A stretch of 46,799 nt of DNA from a virus (taxonomy: Duplodnaviria; Heunggongvirae; Uroviricota; Caudoviricetes), in the IMG/VR virus record IMGVR_UViG_2703718778_000015. One strand, written 5' to 3'. Both the position numbers and the translations under genes were made by a program. A model generated the notes under the pieces. That model did no database searches, was not told the DNA's origin, and was given only the letters and a program-made list of their open reading frames with translations. Below, one piece after another: positions 1 through 42,084 of the stretch (position 1 is the first letter of the stretch; every line of letters begins with the position of its first letter).

Positions 1-579
1 TTATTCCTGTGCCCAGCCAACCCTGTATGCCAGTATCTCATCCGCACTGGTCAGCTTTTCCAGCTCCTTCTTCATGGTGCGCTGGCGAACGTGGATTTCC
101 ATCCCTTTGGTGAACATCGCCTGCTCTGCAGCAGCACTCAGAGCAATCAGTGTTTCAGCGTCCATCGGTACGTCATTATTGTCCGCATCCGTCCAGAAAA
201 ACGCCTCCGGCAGTTTCCCCGCTTTCGCTGCCGCCACCGACGGCTCAAGACGCGTCTGCGTTGACTTCCCGTAGTCCCATTTACGCCCATTGTGCTCAAA
301 CGTGTAGTTCGCCGCTTCCATCGCATTACGCCAGGCGTTGATCCCGGCGGTTTTGAGTTCTCTGGCTTTTTCCGGGCTGATGGATGGCTGTACATATTCT
401 GCAATTTCACCGGCCTCTCCTCTCAGACAAGCGGCATAAATATCCCGCCCGTATGCTTCGGTATCGCTGGCTGTTGCAGTGAAAGGAACCGCCTGCTCAA
501 TGTGCTCAAACTTCACCATGCAATTCACAGCAGTGTGATCTTTATCTGCCCATTGCGGATTGCTTATTTTTTTCCACAT
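1..579 (-). CDS. Hypothetical protein downstream of the side tail fibre gene; possible tail fibre assembly/chaperone protein by position only
   Basis: 192-aa ORF directly after stf on the same strand. It does not resemble the lambda Tfa sequence I remember (no conserved Tfa C-terminus), so the function is inferred from position only. Confidence 0.4.
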   Translation of the reverse strand: MWKKISNPQWADKDHTAVNCMVKFEHIEQAVPFTATASDTEAYGRDIYAACLRGEAGEIAEYVQPSISPEKARELKTAGINAWRNAMEAANYTFEHNGRKWDYGKSTQTRLEPSVAAAKAGKLPEAFFWTDADNNDVPMDAETLIALSAAAEQAMFTKGMEIHVRQRTMKKELEKLTSADEILAYRVGWAQE

Positions 580-34528: not shown

Positions 34529-34623
34529 TTTTCATTACCGCTCTTTCGGGCGGCCTCCTGATGTTCTGAGGGTGCAGAAATCCCTCCGGCTAAGGATTAA
34601 ATTTTTAACAGTTCTAAATTTAA

Positions 34624-38471: not shown

Positions 38472-38909
38472 TCAATGCACCACAACAGACTCGCCGGATG
38501 ACCCGCCGTCGCTGAAATACGCTTTCCGGTAAACTGCCTGGACTGCATCATCATGCGCATCAATTGCCGTGCTCAACGCTTCCTGGGCCGCCAGTAATGC
38601 ACGGCGCTCAACAGTGTCAAAAATACTGAGGTGATAACGCAGTTCACGCGGAAGAACAGTCAGGATAGCTGGAATTAGTGCCTGAATTTTTTCAACAGCA
38701 TCAGGCGTATCCTTTTCAAGCCAGCGAAAAATATTTTGTATGTTCAATCCAATACCCTCTGTCGTAGAGGTGTCATGCATTGGTGGATAAGTCATTTCAA
38801 GCTGAAAATATGCTGTCGCTATATCATCAGCGATTTTTTTGCGCCCTACCCTCGGATAAAGCAGCCACGCATTCATCGCCATGCGGATGTGCTCATGCTT
38901 GATTTTCAT
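38472..38909 (-). CDS. YdaT-like protein (CII-analogue of Rac-type prophages)
   Basis: 145 aa; the C-terminal half (LIPAILTVLPRELRYHLSIFDTVERRALLAAQEALSTAIDAHDDAVQAVYRKAYF) resembles Rac YdaT as I recall it; position immediately after the cro-like gene. Confidence 0.55.
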   Translation of the reverse strand: MKIKHEHIRMAMNAWLLYPRVGRKKIADDIATAYFQLEMTYPPMHDTSTTEGIGLNIQNIFRWLEKDTPDAVEKIQALIPAILTVLPRELRYHLSIFDTVERRALLAAQEALSTAIDAHDDAVQAVYRKAYFSDGGSSGESVVVH

Positions 38910-39166
38910 GAATCAACTCCCGCCGCTGCTTGTGCGTTAGCCTGATACTCAACAGGTAAACCATCGGTTGGATTAGGGTATTTATCAGGGCGCAATTCAT
39001 GCGGAGTTACTCCCCAGTCAAGCGCCTCACATGCTGGTATAACCTCCTCCGCTGGCACTCGTTTTTTAAACCACCCACTTATGGTTTGCGGTGTTTTACC
39101 AAGACGACGCCCTAATTCTGATTGGCTCATTATTGACAGGATTTTCACTTGAGTACTTTTTTGCAT
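38906..39166 (-). CDS. Cro-like HTH regulator (YdaS-like)
   Basis: 86 aa HTH protein (QSELGRRLGKTPQTISGWFKKR) divergent from the cI-like gene across an operator region. Confidence 0.6.
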   Translation of the reverse strand: MQKSTQVKILSIMSQSELGRRLGKTPQTISGWFKKRVPAEEVIPACEALDWGVTPHELRPDKYPNPTDGLPVEYQANAQAAAGVDS

Positions 39167-39194
39167 GTTTCCCTCCGAACTTTACGATGACACC

Positions 39195-39245
39195 GATAAT
39201 TACAAATTTAAACTTAAATTTCAACTTCTATTTGTAATGCCACTT
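39195..39245. promoter_or_regulatory. OR-like operator region: inverted TTACAAAT / ATTTGTAA repeats with inner AAATTTAA...TTAAATTT palindrome
   Basis: Direct reading: ataattacaaatttaaacttaaatttcaacttctatttgtaatg between the divergent cro-like and cI-like genes. Confidence 0.55.
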
Positions 39246-39286
39246 ATCAATTTTTTCTGTAGGATCGCGGAACTAGTTTACGAGGG

Positions 39287-39685
39287 GTGGTGATGATCTT
39301 TGTAAAACGCCTTCAGCAGGTGTTGCAGGAATTGAATATAAACCAGTCAGAGCTGGGAAGACGTCTTGGTGTAAAACCCCAATCCGTGCAAGGTTGGTTG
39401 AAAGGCGTGATGCCAAGAATGGATAAACTGGAAAAATTAGCAGAGCTCTCACAACATCCCGTCCATTGGTTCTTTATGGAAGAAGAAACTCTCGGCGATA
39501 AAATGGCTGTATCCAGTAATGACAACCAACCGCAACTTACAGAACAACAACGAAAAATCATATCGCTTTTAGATGAGTTACCTCAAAGCGACGCAGAGCA
39601 GATCATTCGTGATATGGAGCAAAAACGCGATTTCTATAAACGGAAACTTGAAGAGTTACTGCGGCAGAAAAACAAAACTGCCTGA
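39287..39685 (+). CDS. CI-like prophage repressor (short HTH repressor, RacR-like; no S24 peptidase domain)
   Basis: 132 aa; N-terminal HTH (NINQSELGRRLGVKPQSVQGWLKG), coiled-coil C-terminus; divergent from cro-like gene. Confidence 0.6.
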   Translation: MVMIFVKRLQQVLQELNINQSELGRRLGVKPQSVQGWLKGVMPRMDKLEKLAELSQHPVHWFFMEEETLGDKMAVSSNDNQPQLTEQQRKIISLLDELPQSDAEQIIRDMEQKRDFYKRKLEELLRQKNKTA

Positions 39686-39731
39686 TGCATTCCTTTTCTG
39701 GAACGAGCATCAGGCAAATGACTAGCAGATT

Positions 39732-40091
39732 TTATAATCCAACCAGGCTTTCCAGGGGGATACCAAATTGATTATGAAGACGGCGAATCATTGGTAACGT
39801 AAGGCTTCTGGTACCATTCAACACCTCATAAACCCGATTTTTTTTCCCAATTGCGGGTTCCAAATCTTTCACAGTCAGCCCCTGCTGTTCCATGCGAAAT
39901 CTTATAGCTTCAATTGGGGATGGTGGCTCAATGGGATAATGTTTTTTTTCATATTCCTCTATTAGCAAACACATCACCTCAAAAAAATCCCCCTCAGGCG
40001 TGTCAATTTCGGGCTCATTGTCGAACATGGGTTCAACAGCACGCAACGCGGCTTCATAATCTTGCTCTGTACGAATAGGTTTGATGTTCAT
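39732..40091 (-). CDS. higA: HigA-like antitoxin (HTH/XRE)
   Basis: 119 aa; HigA-type architecture with C-terminal HTH (GLTVKDLEPAIGKKNRVYEVLNGTRSLTLPMIRRL); immediately downstream of higB with a 2-bp gap. Confidence 0.75.
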   Translation of the reverse strand: MNIKPIRTEQDYEAALRAVEPMFDNEPEIDTPEGDFFEVMCLLIEEYEKKHYPIEPPSPIEAIRFRMEQQGLTVKDLEPAIGKKNRVYEVLNGTRSLTLPMIRRLHNQFGIPLESLVGL

Positions 40092-40093
40092 GC

Positions 40094-40396
40094 TTACTCC
40101 AGTTCGATGGTATCAGCATCAATAGCATCGTATTCCTTGTGGTTTCCGATGAATTTAACAAATACCCATCCTCGCTGATACGCAATTGCAACAATTAAAC
40201 GGTAATGATTACCTTTTATGTTGAATACCACGCGCCGGTTTTTCAATATACTGGCCGTTCGGTATTGTACCTTTATGTCTGCTGGGCTTTTCCAGTCAGC
40301 TTTTGCCGCCTCATCCACCCATGCCCTTAGCGGTTGTTCTGCATCAGGATTCTCCGCCCAAAAATCCCTGAGTGTTTTAACTGAGATAATCTTCAT
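40094..40396 (-). CDS. higB: HigB-like toxin (RelE/ParE superfamily)
   Basis: About 100 aa from Met (MKIISVKTLRDFW...VFNIKGNHYRLIVAIAY...FIGNHKEYD), typical HigB motifs; toxin-first order. Confidence 0.75.
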   Translation of the reverse strand: MKIISVKTLRDFWAENPDAEQPLRAWVDEAAKADWKSPADIKVQYRTASILKNRRVVFNIKGNHYRLIVAIAYQRGWVFVKFIGNHKEYDAIDADTIELE

Positions 40397-40440
40397 AACT
40401 GTATAGTAGTCCCATTTTGGGACTGATGCAACAGCTCGCA

Positions 40441-40495
40441 ATTACAAATTTAATAATAAACATGTTGACCAGTTAAATTTTAATTTGTAAATTGT
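40441..40495 (+). promoter_or_regulatory. OL/pL-like region: sigma70 promoter (TTGACC - 17 bp - TAAATT) flanked by TTACAAAT / ATTTGTAA operator half-sites
   Basis: Direct reading: attacaaatttaataataaacatgTTGACCagttaaattttaatttgTAAATTg; same 8-9-bp motif as in the OR region; the higB promoter must be divergent from the same interval. Confidence 0.55.
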
Positions 40496-40672
40496 ATCCA
40501 TAAACCCACCCCGCCCCACAGAACGCAGGGCAATACTTCGAGTTACCCGGCAGTGGTCAGGGGTTAAGTAGCCAGCCCGAGGCGTAAGAACATGACGGCA
40601 GGGTTCAACTTTAATAACTATGCAGCAGGTTTTTGTTCCGCTACCCCGGCGTTAAGGGGAAATGAGGTCAGC

Positions 40673-40828
40673 ATGGATACTATCGATCTTGGCAACAACG
40701 AATCTCTGGTATGTGGCGTGTTCCCCAACCAGGACGGTACGTTCACCGCGATGACGTATACCAAAAGCAAAACGTTTAAAACCGAAAATGGTGCCCGTCG
40801 CTGGCTGGAAAGAAACTCAGGTGAGTGA
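40673..40828 (+). CDS. Hypothetical small protein (51 aa), first gene of early-left operon
   Basis: ATG preceded by GAGGT RBS (MDTIDLGNNESLV...). Confidence 0.4.
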   Translation: MDTIDLGNNESLVCGVFPNQDGTFTAMTYTKSKTFKTENGARRWLERNSGE

Positions 40829-41387: not shown

Positions 41388-41895
41388 TGCTTAATGAATC
41401 CTTAAAACTGTGGTGATTTTAAGGATACCACCTCGCCTGACGTGGTTAAAAGCAGGCACACAACACGAAAGCGCACGGCGAGGTTTCTGGTTCATAGATG
41501 GCTTGTCGTTAAATTTTCGTCGACCGTGCGCTCCCGGTTGTGGCAATCCGCGAAACGGCGCGGCGGTAAGTATGGCGGGGGTACTCTTCTCCCCCTGTGG
41601 AGCACCGGGTTGTCAGGTTGACCATACGCTTAAGAGACAACCACGCTGCAACGCCCTCTGTTATCCATTTTCTGGTGACGTTTGGCGGTATCAGTTTTAC
41701 TCCGTGACTGCTCTGCCGCCCTTTTTAAAGTGAATTTTGTGATGTGGTGAATGCGGCTGAGCGCACGCGGAACAGTTAAAACCAAAAACAGTGTTATGGG
41801 TGGATTCTCTGTATCCGGCGTTAATTGTTAACTGGTTAACGTCACCTGGAGGCACCAGGCACCGCATCACAAAATTCATTGTTGAGGACGCGATA

Positions 41896-42084
41896 ATGGA
41901 AACGTTATTACCAAACGTTAATACGTCTGAAGGTTGTTTTGAAATTGGTGTCACTATCAGTAACCCTGTATTTACTGAAGATGCCATTAACAAGAGAAAA
42001 CACGAACGGGAGCTATTAAATAAAATATGCATTCTTTCAATGTTGGCCCGTTTACGTCCGATACAAAAAGGATGCTGGCAATGA
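41896..42084 (+). CDS. Hypothetical small protein (62 aa)
   Basis: ATG with GAGGA RBS (METLLPNVNTSEG...); followed by a 15-codon hydrophobic mini-ORF with stop/start overlap. Confidence 0.3.
   Translation: METLLPNVNTSEGCFEIGVTISNPVFTEDAINKRKHERELLNKICILSMLARLRPIQKGCWQ

What the first reader, a model, noticed from the sequence alone, without database searches (positions are those of the whole stretch)
39167..40500. higBA toxin-antitoxin module embedded in the immunity region, flanked by operator regions sharing the same TTACAAAT motif
Between the cI-like repressor gene and the pL-like promoter (the position occupied by rexAB in lambda) lies a toxin-first higB-higA pair on the opposite strand. 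Its promoter must lie in the same 60-bp AT-rich interval as the pL-like promoter (TTGACC-17-TAAATT). That interval carries inverted TTACAAAT/ATTTGTAA half-sites that recur in the cro/cI intergenic region. The shared motif suggests that either the prophage repressor or HigA (or both) bind at both sites, coupling TA expression to the lysogenic switch; this could be an exclusion or prophage-stabilisation arrangement.
Basis: partly seen in the sequence, partly recalled or inferred. Interest (0 to 1): 0.6.

Follow-up and report, generated by a model that had tools for sequence, protein, structure and literature searches.

The report
HigBA toxin-antitoxin inside a prophage immunity region
An ordinary, self-regulated HigB/HigA toxin-antitoxin pair sits in the "rexAB slot" of an E. 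coli lambdoid prophage, and the TTACAAAT repeats on either side of it are most likely the phage repressor's left and right operators, not HigA sites.

Summary
All four TTACAAAT copies in the window form two inverted pairs, at 39200/39230 and 40442/40483. They bracket a short HTH repressor gene and a toxin-first higB-higA pair on the opposite strand.

The window is a DicA/PaaR2/RacR-type lambdoid prophage: ydaT, ydaS, OR, repressor, then OL/pL driving ydfABC-DicF-dicB. Motifs shared between OR and OL are the normal design of such switches. Repressor relatives in Sodalis, Serratia and Arsenophonus have no higBA, yet keep the same motif layout at OR and OL.

HigA appears to have its own operator, AGTCCCA-N3-TGGGACT (40408-40424). 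It lies in the 17-nt spacer of a promoter (TTGCAT-17-TACTAT) that ends 6 nt before the higB ATG. This layout recurs in most of 70 higBA relatives outside prophages; none of them has TTACAAAT.

higBA is therefore an autonomous cargo module. It has its own promoter, operator and terminator, and is under purifying selection. TA modules in this slot are already documented (paaR2-paaA2-parE2 in CP-933P).

One link to the switch stays open. The OL-left operator is centred at -50.5 of the higBA promoter, where 12 of the 14 closest relatives carry a second HigA operator.

The parts
38472..38909 (-). ydaT-like gene (CII analogue)
   Evidence: Pfam YdaT_toxin, E=1.2e-10. Annotated 'toxin YdaT family protein' in identical RefSeq copies.
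38899..38916 (.). Perfect YdaT-type inverted repeat TTGATTTTCATGAATCAA at the ydaS/ydaT junction
   Evidence: The only match in the window to TTGATT-N6-AATCAA, with 0 mismatches. The site was defined for CP-933P YdaT in PMC9986795 (abstract).
38906..39166 (-). ydaS-like gene (Cro analogue)
   Evidence: Pfam YdaS_toxin E=1.7e-08 and HTH_3.
39198..39239 (.). OR: AATTACAAATTTAA (39198-39211), central TTAAATTTCAA (39214-39224), inverted copy TTCTATTTGTAATG (39226-39239)
   Evidence: I7: 40-bp imperfect palindrome. Nearly invariant in 10 cassette variants. The same layout is kept in 7 diverged repressor lineages.
39196..39224 (-). pR candidate for ydaS: -35 TTGAAA, 17 nt, -10 AATTAT; the -10 overlaps the left TTACAAAT
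   Evidence: Promoter scan. The design parallels pL, with ATTTGTAA reading into the -10 (my reading).
39237..39265 (+). pRM candidate for the repressor: weak -35 ATGCCA, 17 nt, -10 TAGGAT
   Evidence: CTGTAGnAT is conserved in six of the seven diverged OR regions (TTTGTAGTAT in L114, TTTGTATGCT in L122). This is an inference; no TSS data.
39293..39685 (+). Prophage repressor, 130 aa, HTH only, DicA/PaaR2-like, no S24 peptidase domain
   Evidence: HTH_3 E=6.6e-09. NCBIfam DicA model E=2.7e-13, below its cutoff. Aligns end to end with Qin DicA at 22% identity. tblastn hits to CI of Gifsy-1/2 and SPN3UB.
39679..39716 (-). Hairpin followed by GUUUUGUUUUU on the minus-strand RNA: intrinsic terminator of higBA
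   Evidence: 10-bp perfect stem (I15). Fold -23.5 kcal/mol, z=-2.9.
39732..40091 (-). higA antitoxin, 119 aa, C-terminal HTH; GGAG Shine-Dalgarno 5 nt before its ATG
   Evidence: (5IFG/5YCL HigA, E~3e-09). dN/dS 0.02-0.04.
40094..40396 (-). higB toxin, 100 aa
   Evidence: PF09907 E=1.6e-32. PDB HigB 5IFG/5YCL. The alignment to K-12 HigB starts at M1. dN/dS 0.07-0.10.
40403..40431 (-). P_higBA: -35 TTGCAT (40426-40431), 17-nt spacer, -10 TACTAT (40403-40408), then 6 nt to the ATG (predicted leaderless mRNA)
   Evidence: The pattern TTGnnn-16..18-TAnnnn-5..8-ATG fits 44 of 70 homologous loci against 0.3% of control positions. TTG and TA..AT are kept in the cassette variants compared.
40408..40424 (.). 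Putative HigA operator O1: AGTCCCA-TTT-TGGGACT
   Evidence: Only copy in the window. Half-sites are invariant while the loop varies in 10 variants. Present at the same position (centre about -20) in relatives from several bacterial classes; changes on both arms to GACCA-N3-TGGTC in alphaproteobacterial relatives.
40440..40453 (.). OL-left operator AATTACAAATTTAA, between the divergent -35 elements of P_higBA and pL
   Evidence: Core CAAATTTAAT is invariant in 10 variants. An equivalent element is present in higBA-less Sodalis and Arsenophonus OL, with a related AT-rich element in Serratia.
40465..40493 (+). pL (dicBp analogue): -35 TTGACC, 17 nt, -10 TAAATT, overlapped by OL-right TTAAATTTTAATTTGTAA (40473-40490)
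   Evidence: Promoter scan. TTGAC and the 17-nt right operator block are invariant. Same layout in relatives.
40503..40828 (+). pL leader (conserved among heteroimmune prophages from 40503 on) and ydfA-like DUF1391 gene (annotated start 40673)
   Evidence: about 3,700 E. coli genomes and several phages match only from 40503 on.

Best explanation
The locus is the immunity region of an E. coli lambdoid prophage of the DicA/PaaR2/RacR type. A short HTH repressor, and most likely the Cro-like YdaS, bind AT-rich operators built on TTACAAAT(TTAA). These occur at OR (controlling pR and pRM) and at OL (controlling pL, the promoter of a ydfABC-DicF-dicB-ydfD operon).

Between the repressor gene and OL, where lambda carries rexAB, sits an autonomous type II higBA module that was acquired as cargo. 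It is read from its own promoter (TTGCAT-17-TACTAT). It is autoregulated by HigA, or the HigBA complex, binding a different dyad (AGTCCCA-N3-TGGGACT) in the promoter spacer. It ends at its own hairpin terminator, which abuts the 3' end of the repressor gene.

The higB message probably starts at or very near its AUG (leaderless), whereas higA has a Shine-Dalgarno. That would keep antitoxin in excess despite the toxin-first order.

Any gene between OR and OL is inherited with the immunity specificity, so the module hitch-hikes with the switch. Its likely benefit is exclusion or abortive infection of other phages, and/or addiction that stabilises the immunity region.

Shown here: gene identities, the motif architecture and its statistics, the comparative separation of the two DNA motifs, and purifying selection. 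Inferred: who binds what, the start of the higB message, toxicity, and biological role.
For: 1. Context.
- ydaT, ydaS, HTH repressor and a DUF1391/ydfA gene.
- DicF RNA at 41670-41721, 76.7 bits.
- RefSeq annotation of an identical copy: ydfB, ydfC, dicB, ydfD, exonuclease, xis, int, next to ompW.
- The repressor aligns end to end with DicA.
- A perfect YdaT site lies at the ydaS/ydaT junction.

2. Published relatives have the same logic.
- PaaR2 and YdaS protect overlapping operators at OR, and similar operators lie at a PL analogue that both repress in reporter assays (PMC8630535).
- The dicA-dicC and dicA-dicBp intergenic regions each contain three operator sequences, and DicA represses dicBp (PMC10448788).

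3. The TTACAAAT motif travels with the repressor, not with higBA.
- OR layout is conserved in repressor homologues whose slot holds a PLD-family gene (L116), nothing (L118), paaA2 (L120) or other ORFs (L121, L122).
- OL layout, including the exact AATTACAAAT in Arsenophonus, is kept without higBA.

4. The GTCCC-N5-GGGAC dyad travels with higBA.
- 80 HigA-homologue loci were collected (55-91% identity). None has the repressor or ydaS within 3 kb.
- None of the 70 loci with a mapped higB start has TTACAAAT upstream of higB, and nearly all show a dyad of this type in the spacer between the -35 and -10.
- Both arms change together (GTCCCA/TGGGAC to GACCA/TGGTC) between clades.

5. Nucleotide homology to non-phage higBA runs only from 40424/40431 to 39731. 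That covers promoter core, higB and higA, and stops short of OL-left and the terminator.

6. The module looks functional.
- dN/dS is 0.02-0.10.
- Both proteins match the solved E. coli/Shigella HigBA pair over their full length.
- A terminator hairpin is present.

7. Linkage. Repressor and higBA co-occur in 148 of 148 E. coli genomes and 23 of 23 IMG/VR contigs, despite different flanks.
Against: - No binding, transcription-start or toxicity data exist for this locus. All protein-DNA assignments are comparative inferences.
- P_higBA matches the sigma-70 consensus in only 7 of 12 positions and was not reported by the generic promoter scan.
- The exact operator unit of the repressor is unclear: an 8-mer, a 12-14-mer, or AAATTT-centred pseudo-palindromes.
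- OL-left lies only 8 bp upstream of the higBA -35, so the module may not be regulated fully independently of the switch.
- A two-gene HigBA of this subfamily has not itself been shown to defend against phage. The related PD-lambda-2 system needs three components.
Confidence: 0.8

Rival explanations
1. Dual control. The prophage repressor bound at OL-left also regulates P_higBA, by repression or by pRM-like activation. TA expression would then track repressor occupancy and change on induction or on loss of the immunity region. The coupling would run through the repressor, not through HigA.
For: - OL-left spans -57 to -44 relative to the higB ATG (centre -50.5), 8 bp upstream of the -35.
- 12 of the 14 closest non-phage higBA relatives carry a second HigA dyad centred at -50 +/- 3. 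The prophage copy lacks it and has OL-left there instead.
- The 18-nt distance from O1 to the TACAA core is identical in the 89%-identity E. coli repressor lineage and the 74%-identity Salmonella lineage. In the Salmonella lineage the OL-left to pL distance differs by 2 nt.
- P_higBA sits relative to OL as pRM sits relative to OR.
Against: - OL-left exists in the same place in relatives without higBA, so it was not created for higBA.
- Single-operator higBA promoters also occur outside phages (L008, L012, L022-L025).
- A centre at -50.5 is not a classical activator position.
- The absence of indels may simply reflect short divergence times.
- There are no expression data.
Confidence: 0.25
2. 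One reading: HigA, alone or with the repressor, binds the TTACAAAT repeats at both OR and OL and so ties the TA module directly into the lysis-lysogeny decision.
For: HigA is an HTH protein encoded next to OL, and the motif is shared by both regions.
Against: - None of the 70 higBA relatives with a mapped higB start has TTACAAAT upstream of higB, whereas the repressor relatives without higBA do have it or a close variant.
- A distinct, clade-covarying dyad sits in the higBA promoter.
- That dyad has no copy at OR, even allowing 3 mismatches.
Confidence: 0.04
3. The higBA pair is a decaying, non-functional remnant that merely hitch-hikes between OR and OL.
For: Its linkage to the repressor is explained by position alone: anything between OR and OL is inherited with the immunity specificity. 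No function has been shown.
Against: - Both ORFs are intact in the cassette copies translated (26 here and 4), apart from one copy with a partial HigA match (L101), and both genes are annotated in the complete-genome hits listed.
- dN/dS is 0.02-0.10, with dS up to 0.33.
- Promoter, operator arms and terminator are conserved.
- The pair is retained in a Salmonella lineage whose repressor has diverged to 74% identity.
Confidence: 0.05

Closest known systems
paaR2-paaA2-parE2 in the immunity region of cryptic prophage CP-933P, E. coli O157:H7 (Jurenas et al. 2021, PMC8630535)
   Same: - A TA module between a short, peptidase-less CI-like repressor and PL.
- Divergent ydaS/ydaT as Cro/CII analogues.
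- Operators shared by OR and OL.
- The authors propose that the TA stabilises the immunity region.
- A 72%-identical homologue of our repressor in Salmonella Javiana is followed by a paaA2 gene, so the two belong to one immunity family.
   Different: - There the TA is co-transcribed with the repressor from pRM, and the antitoxin has no DNA-binding domain.
- Here the TA is a complete HigBA on the opposite strand, with its own promoter, its own operator and its own terminator.
- The toxin family differs: ParE there, a RelE-fold HigB here.
DicA/DicC switch and dicBF operon of cryptic prophage Qin, E. coli K-12 (PMC10448788)
   Same: - Short repressor of the same length and architecture (22% identity end to end).
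- The same pL operon: ydfA-ydfB-ydfC-DicF-dicB-ydfD.
- Operators at both dicCp and dicBp.
   Different: In Qin, dicA is followed directly by dicBp, 166 bp before ydfA, with no gene in between. Here about 0.75 kb of higBA is inserted.
E. coli K-12 / Shigella flexneri HigBA (YgjN/YgjM; PDB 5IFG, 5YCL, 6KML)
   Same: - Same two families, same toxin-first order, full-length matches to both chains.
- HigA has a C-terminal HTH.
   Different: - Only 27% (HigB) and 33% (HigA) identity.
- The K-12 promoter uses different palindromes (TTGCCA-type) and has a leader.
PD-lambda-2 anti-phage system (Vassallo et al. 2022, PMC9519451), and the HigB / long HigA / SecB-like module between cI and N of Stx phage BP-4795
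   Same: - HigB matches PD-Lambda-2_A (E=3.5e-40). HigA matches the N-terminal HigA-like part of PD-Lambda-2_B (E=1.7e-42).
- BP-4795 carries a related module in the same slot.
   Different: - PD-lambda-2 needs a peptidase domain fused to B, plus a third gene. Both are absent here.
- The BP-4795 module is co-directional with cI and has a chaperone-like third gene.
rexAB of phage lambda
   Same: Same map position (between cI and OL/pL), and a prophage cargo expressed in the lysogen.
   Different: No sequence relationship. rexAB is co-transcribed with cI; higBA is convergent with the repressor gene.

Membership tests
Type II HigBA toxin-antitoxin (PF09907 HigB + HTH-Xre HigA, E. coli K-12 type) | Toxin with the HigB_toxin (RelE-fold) domain | tested here: met
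   PF09907 E=1.6e-32, profile positions 1-74 of 74. PDB HigB 5IFG/5YCL, E~1e-06, over residues 1-93.
Type II HigBA toxin-antitoxin (PF09907 HigB + HTH-Xre HigA, E. coli K-12 type) | Adjacent HTH antitoxin downstream of the toxin (reverse gene order) | tested here: met
   higA starts 2 nt after the higB stop. HTH_3 at residues 63-115. Matches HigA chains 5IFG_B/5YCL_A, E~3e-09.
Type II HigBA toxin-antitoxin (PF09907 HigB + HTH-Xre HigA, E. coli K-12 type) | Palindromic operator in its own promoter (autoregulation) | tested here: inconclusive
   The dyad AGTCCCA-N3-TGGGACT lies in the promoter spacer. It is conserved and changes on both arms together across relatives. Binding by HigA cannot be tested with these tools.
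Type II HigBA toxin-antitoxin (PF09907 HigB + HTH-Xre HigA, E. coli K-12 type) | Toxin arrests growth and is neutralised by the antitoxin | not testable with these tools
   Indirect only: dN/dS of 0.02-0.10 on both genes.
PD-lambda-2 defence system | Component B is a HigA-like HTH fused to a C-terminal ImmA/IrrE peptidase | tested here: not met
   HigA is 119 aa and covers only positions 1-119 of the 402-position PD-Lambda-2_B profile. The domain description comes from PMC9519451.
PD-lambda-2 defence system | Third component C (related to a P4 antitoxin), required for defence | tested here: not met
   There is no third gene. higA is followed by a terminator and the convergent repressor gene.
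Lambdoid immunity region of the DicA/PaaR2/RacR type | Short HTH repressor without an S24 self-cleavage domain, divergent from ydaS (Cro-like) and ydaT (CII-like) | tested here: met
   The YdaT site is at 38899-38916.
Lambdoid immunity region of the DicA/PaaR2/RacR type | Related operators at OR and at OL, overlapping pR and pL | tested here: met
   Conserved in 7 diverged lineages. Occupancy by the proteins was not testable.
Three-component paaR2-paaA2-parE2-type TA | TA genes co-transcribed with the repressor; antitoxin lacks a DNA-binding domain | tested here: not met
   higBA is on the opposite strand with its own promoter and terminator. HigA has an HTH.

The most novel reading that the evidence does not exclude
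The prophage's OL-left operator has functionally replaced the distal HigA operator found in most free-living relatives. The higBA promoter would then be read jointly by HigA (at -20) and by the phage repressor (at -50). HigBA would act as a sensor of repressor occupancy, firing or shutting down when the repressor is inactivated, titrated by an incoming homoimmune phage, or lost by recombination.
Probability: 0.2. Interest if true: 0.55.

Novelty: new member of a known kind. Interest (0 to 1): 0.3.

Why it matters
It adds one more case, with a different toxin family and a different wiring (convergent and self-regulated), to the emerging picture that the slot between the repressor gene and OL in lambdoid prophages is a cargo site for TA and defence genes. 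Within this single repressor family the slot holds higBA, paaA2, a PLD-family gene, other small ORFs or nothing.

The comparison separates the two DNA-recognition systems cleanly and gives testable operator sequences for both proteins. The cassette is present in 148 of 5,426 complete E. coli genomes, including O26, O103, O45 and O111 Shiga-toxin-producing strains. It could therefore influence superinfection or prophage stability in those lineages. None of this overturns current understanding.

Tried and rejected
- I looked for a natural copy of this repressor allele without higBA in E. coli, by megablast and by sensitive blastn. There is none: 148 of 148 are linked. IMG/VR gave 23 of 23 linked. 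The separation appeared only among protein-level homologues of 52-72% identity.
- The generic promoter scan did not report the higBA promoter. An alternative minus-strand promoter inside the AT-rich interval (TTAACT-17-TTAAAT) was considered. I rejected it as the main promoter because it is not part of the DNA shared with other higBA loci, and the TTGnnn-dyad-TAnnnT-6nt-ATG layout is what is conserved.
- I tried to define the repressor's operator unit (8-mer, 12-mer TTACAAATTTAA, AAATTT-centred 10-mers). A 12-mer search with up to 3 mismatches is not enriched window-wide (32 found against 34 expected). Only the matches with 0 or 1 mismatch cluster at OR and OL. The unit stays undefined.
- Filing the pair under PD-lambda-2 was rejected because two defining features are not met.
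- Rfam found no known RNA in 39167-40600.
- A Bradyrhizobium paper that mentions higBA gave nothing relevant on operators or leaderless starts.
- In the S. diarizonae locus I could not locate OL within the DNA fetched.
Full report
**What is in the sequence**

From left to right, window 38472-40828 holds the following.
- A ydaT-like gene (38472-38909, minus strand).
- A ydaS/cro-like gene (38906-39166, minus).
- A 120-bp intergenic region.
- A 130-aa HTH-only repressor gene (39293-39685, plus).
- higA (39732-40091, minus) and higB (40094-40396, minus).
- A roughly 100-bp intergenic region.
- A conserved leader and a DUF1391/ydfA-like gene.

An identical copy in E. coli ECO2947 is annotated the same way. 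There it continues with ydfB, ydfC, dicB, ydfD, an exonuclease, xis and int, next to ompW. Rfam finds DicF at 41670-41721. The element is therefore a lambdoid prophage whose leftward operon is a dicBF operon, as in Qin.

**Check of the observation**

The identity extends to a 14-mer (39198-39211 = 40440-40453), and with mismatches to 17-21 nt. I shuffled only the two AT-rich segments, preserving dinucleotides. A shared 14-mer arose in 2 of 5000 trials. A shared inverted 8-mer pair arose in 0 of 5000. The pL-like TTGACC-17-TAAATT is at 40465-40493.

**What the shared motif is**

The repressor has an HTH domain only, with no self-cleavage domain. It aligns end to end with Qin DicA and hits the NCBIfam DicA model below its cutoff. 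Its divergent partners are YdaS and YdaT. A perfect copy of the published YdaT site, TTGATT-N6-AATCAA, lies at the ydaS/ydaT junction (site from PMC9986795).

In the two characterised relatives, related operators lie at both the right and left promoters.
- PaaR2 and YdaS footprint on overlapping operators at OR. Similar operators lie at a PL analogue that both proteins repress in reporter assays (PMC8630535).
- The dicA-dicC and dicA-dicBp intergenic regions each contain three operator sequences, and DicA represses dicBp (PMC10448788).

A motif shared by OR and OL is thus the expected design. Both lytic promoters here have the same layout, with ATTTGTAA reading into the -10 of pR (TTGAAA-17-AATTAT, minus strand) and of pL.

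**Natural experiments that assign the motif to the repressor**

Within E. coli, the repressor allele and higBA never separate.
- 148 of 148 complete genomes carry both, by megablast and by sensitive blastn.
- 23 of 23 IMG/VR contigs carry both.

Protein-level homologues of the repressor do separate.

| Lineage | Repressor identity | Gene(s) in the slot | Source |
|---|---|---|---|
| E. coli lineage, L112/L113 | 89% | higBA | |
| Salmonella enterica, L114/L115 | 74% | higBA | |
| S. diarizonae, L116/L117 | 71% | PLD-family gene | |
| Sodalis, L118 | 71% | nothing | |
| S. Javiana, L120 | 72% | paaA2 | |
| Serratia, L121 | 58% | two small ORFs | |
| Arsenophonus, L122 | 52% | a 103-aa ORF beyond OL/pL (slot itself empty) | |

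All of these keep the same OR layout: AATTACArAT, then TTAAATTkCAA, then AwTTGyAATG, then CTGTAGnAT. Sodalis, Serratia and Arsenophonus also keep an OL with an upstream element, a TTGACn -35 and ATTTGTAG over the -10, with no higBA nearby. Arsenophonus has the exact AATTACAAAT. The motif therefore belongs to the switch.

**HigA has a different operator**

Directly upstream of higB, on the minus strand, the sequence reads TTGCAT, then cAGTCCCAAAATGGGAC, then TACTAT, then ACAGTT, then ATG. This is a -35, a 17-nt spacer filled by the dyad AGTCCCA-N3-TGGGACT, a -10, and then 6 nt to the start codon.

I collected 80 loci encoding HigA relatives of 55-91% identity, from Enterobacterales, Burkholderiales, alphaproteobacteria and others.
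- None has the repressor or ydaS within 3 kb.
- None of the 70 with a mapped higB start has TTACAAAT upstream of higB.
- Nearly all show the same layout, and 44 of 70 fit a strict pattern against 0.3% of control positions.
- The two arms change together between clades, from GTCCCA/TGGGAC to GACCA/TGGTC. That is what an operator co-evolving with its protein should do.

In ten variants of the prophage cassette the arms are invariant while the loop varies. The dyad has no second copy in the window, even with three mismatches, so there is none at OR. The idea that HigA binds at both OR and OL is not supported.

**The module is autonomous and looks functional**

- Nucleotide homology to non-phage higBA runs only from 40424/40431 to 39731. 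It covers the promoter core and both genes, and stops before OL-left and before the terminator.
- Downstream of higA, a 10-bp perfect stem followed by GUUUUGUUUUU on the minus-strand RNA is a good intrinsic terminator (-23.5 kcal/mol).
- The alignment of HigB with K-12 HigB starts at M1, and no Shine-Dalgarno precedes it.
- The -10 to ATG distance of 6-7 nt is conserved across the family. The higB message is therefore probably leaderless, while higA has GGAG 5 nt before its ATG. This is an inference, but it would explain antitoxin excess in a toxin-first operon.
- dN/dS is 0.07-0.10 for higB and 0.02-0.04 for higA within the cassette lineage.
- Both proteins match the solved E. coli/Shigella HigBA pair over their full length, at 27% and 33% identity. 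The K-12 promoter uses other palindromes.

**What remains of the coupling idea**

OL-left (40440-40453) lies between the two divergent -35 elements, 8 bp from that of P_higBA. It spans -57 to -44 relative to the higB ATG. In 12 of the 14 closest non-phage relatives, a second HigA dyad is centred at -50 +/- 3. The prophage copy has OL-left there instead.

The O1 to OL-left spacing is the same in the 89% and 74% repressor lineages. A repressor dimer at OL-left could therefore influence P_higBA.

Against this, OL-left is present in higBA-less relatives, and single-operator higBA promoters also exist elsewhere. I rate this dual-control reading at about 0.2-0.25.

The perfect linkage of higBA with the repressor needs no special mechanism. 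Any gene between OR and OL is inherited with the immunity specificity. Recombinants that split OL from its repressor would presumably derepress dicB, DicF and ydfD, which are a cell-division inhibitor, a toxic sRNA and a lysis protein (PMC10448788).

**Function**

- PADLOC matches HigB to PD-Lambda-2_A, and HigA to the N-terminal third of PD-Lambda-2_B. PD-lambda-2, however, is a three-gene system with a peptidase fusion (PMC9519451), so this locus is not a member.
- Stx phage BP-4795 carries a related HigB, a long HigA and a SecB-like protein between cI and N.
- The P1-like phage D6 encodes an orphan HigA that is 93% identical to ours, with no cognate toxin.

These facts, together with the slot's varied cargo, fit a role in inter-phage conflict. 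The addiction role proposed for paaA2-parE2 is equally compatible. Neither role is shown.

**Verdict**

The locus is a new member of a known kind: a TA cargo in the rexAB-equivalent slot of a DicA/PaaR2-type immunity region. The flanking TTACAAAT repeats are the ordinary OR and OL operators of the phage switch.

Noticed in passing
L004 2501-2860 (Escherichia phage D6, MF356679.1 68282-68641): The P1-like phage-plasmid D6 encodes a stand-alone HigA that is 93% identical to the window's HigA. It follows a terminator hairpin, and no PF09907 HigB or GTCCC dyad lies upstream. The neighbouring D6_70/71 genes are a different RelE/HigA pair. It could be an anti-defence antitoxin aimed at this prophage HigB.
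   Followed up: partly
window 38899-38916: A perfect TTGATTTTCATGAATCAA lies at the ydaS stop / ydaT start. It matches the published YdaT (CII-analogue) recognition site TTGATT-N6-AATCAA of CP-933P, and it is the only such site in the window.
   Followed up: partly
window 34597-34623: Two adjacent operator-like AT-rich elements (TTAAATTTTTAA and TTCTAAATTTAA) lie in an intergenic gap of the nin-like region. They are one and two mismatches from TTACAAATTTAA. This could be chance or a third repressor target.
   Followed up: no
window 40503-40672: The pL leader is conserved in about 3,700 of 5,426 E. coli genomes, in several phages and in Sodalis. The conservation begins a few bases after the predicted pL -10, so the immunity-specific DNA ends at the transcription start. 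Rfam has no family for it.
   Followed up: partly
window 41670-41928: DicF sRNA (76.7 bits) is followed immediately by a sub-threshold STnc100-like match (38.7 bits against a gathering score of 47).
   Followed up: no
L116 3506-4780; L120 3454-3645; L005 2693-4034: The slot between repressor and OL is a variable cargo site in this and related immunity families. It holds a 424-aa PLDc_2 protein in S. diarizonae, and paaA2 with what looks like a truncated parE2 in S. Javiana. In Stx phage BP-4795 it holds a HigB / long HigA / SecB-like (PD-T4-9_C) triple.
   Followed up: partly
L006-L085, upstream of higB: This HigBA subfamily has a conserved promoter with the operator dyad in the spacer and only 6-7 nt between the -10 and the start codon. 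An SD-like motif upstream of the start was found in only 12 of 70 loci. This suggests leaderless toxin mRNAs across several bacterial classes.
   Followed up: partly
L001 4932-6030 (E. coli A34 copy of the prophage): In strain A34 the pL operon downstream of the same cassette also carries a 'tRNA-OTHER' and a second TA pair (Phd/YefM with RelE/ParE).
   Followed up: no
L001-L003, L086-L108: Within the cassette, the Cro-like YdaS varies more (82-100% identity) than the repressor (92-100%) or HigA (97-100%). The ydaT alleles also differ in length, so the left recombination boundary of the immunity cassette seems to lie inside ydaS/ydaT.
   Followed up: no
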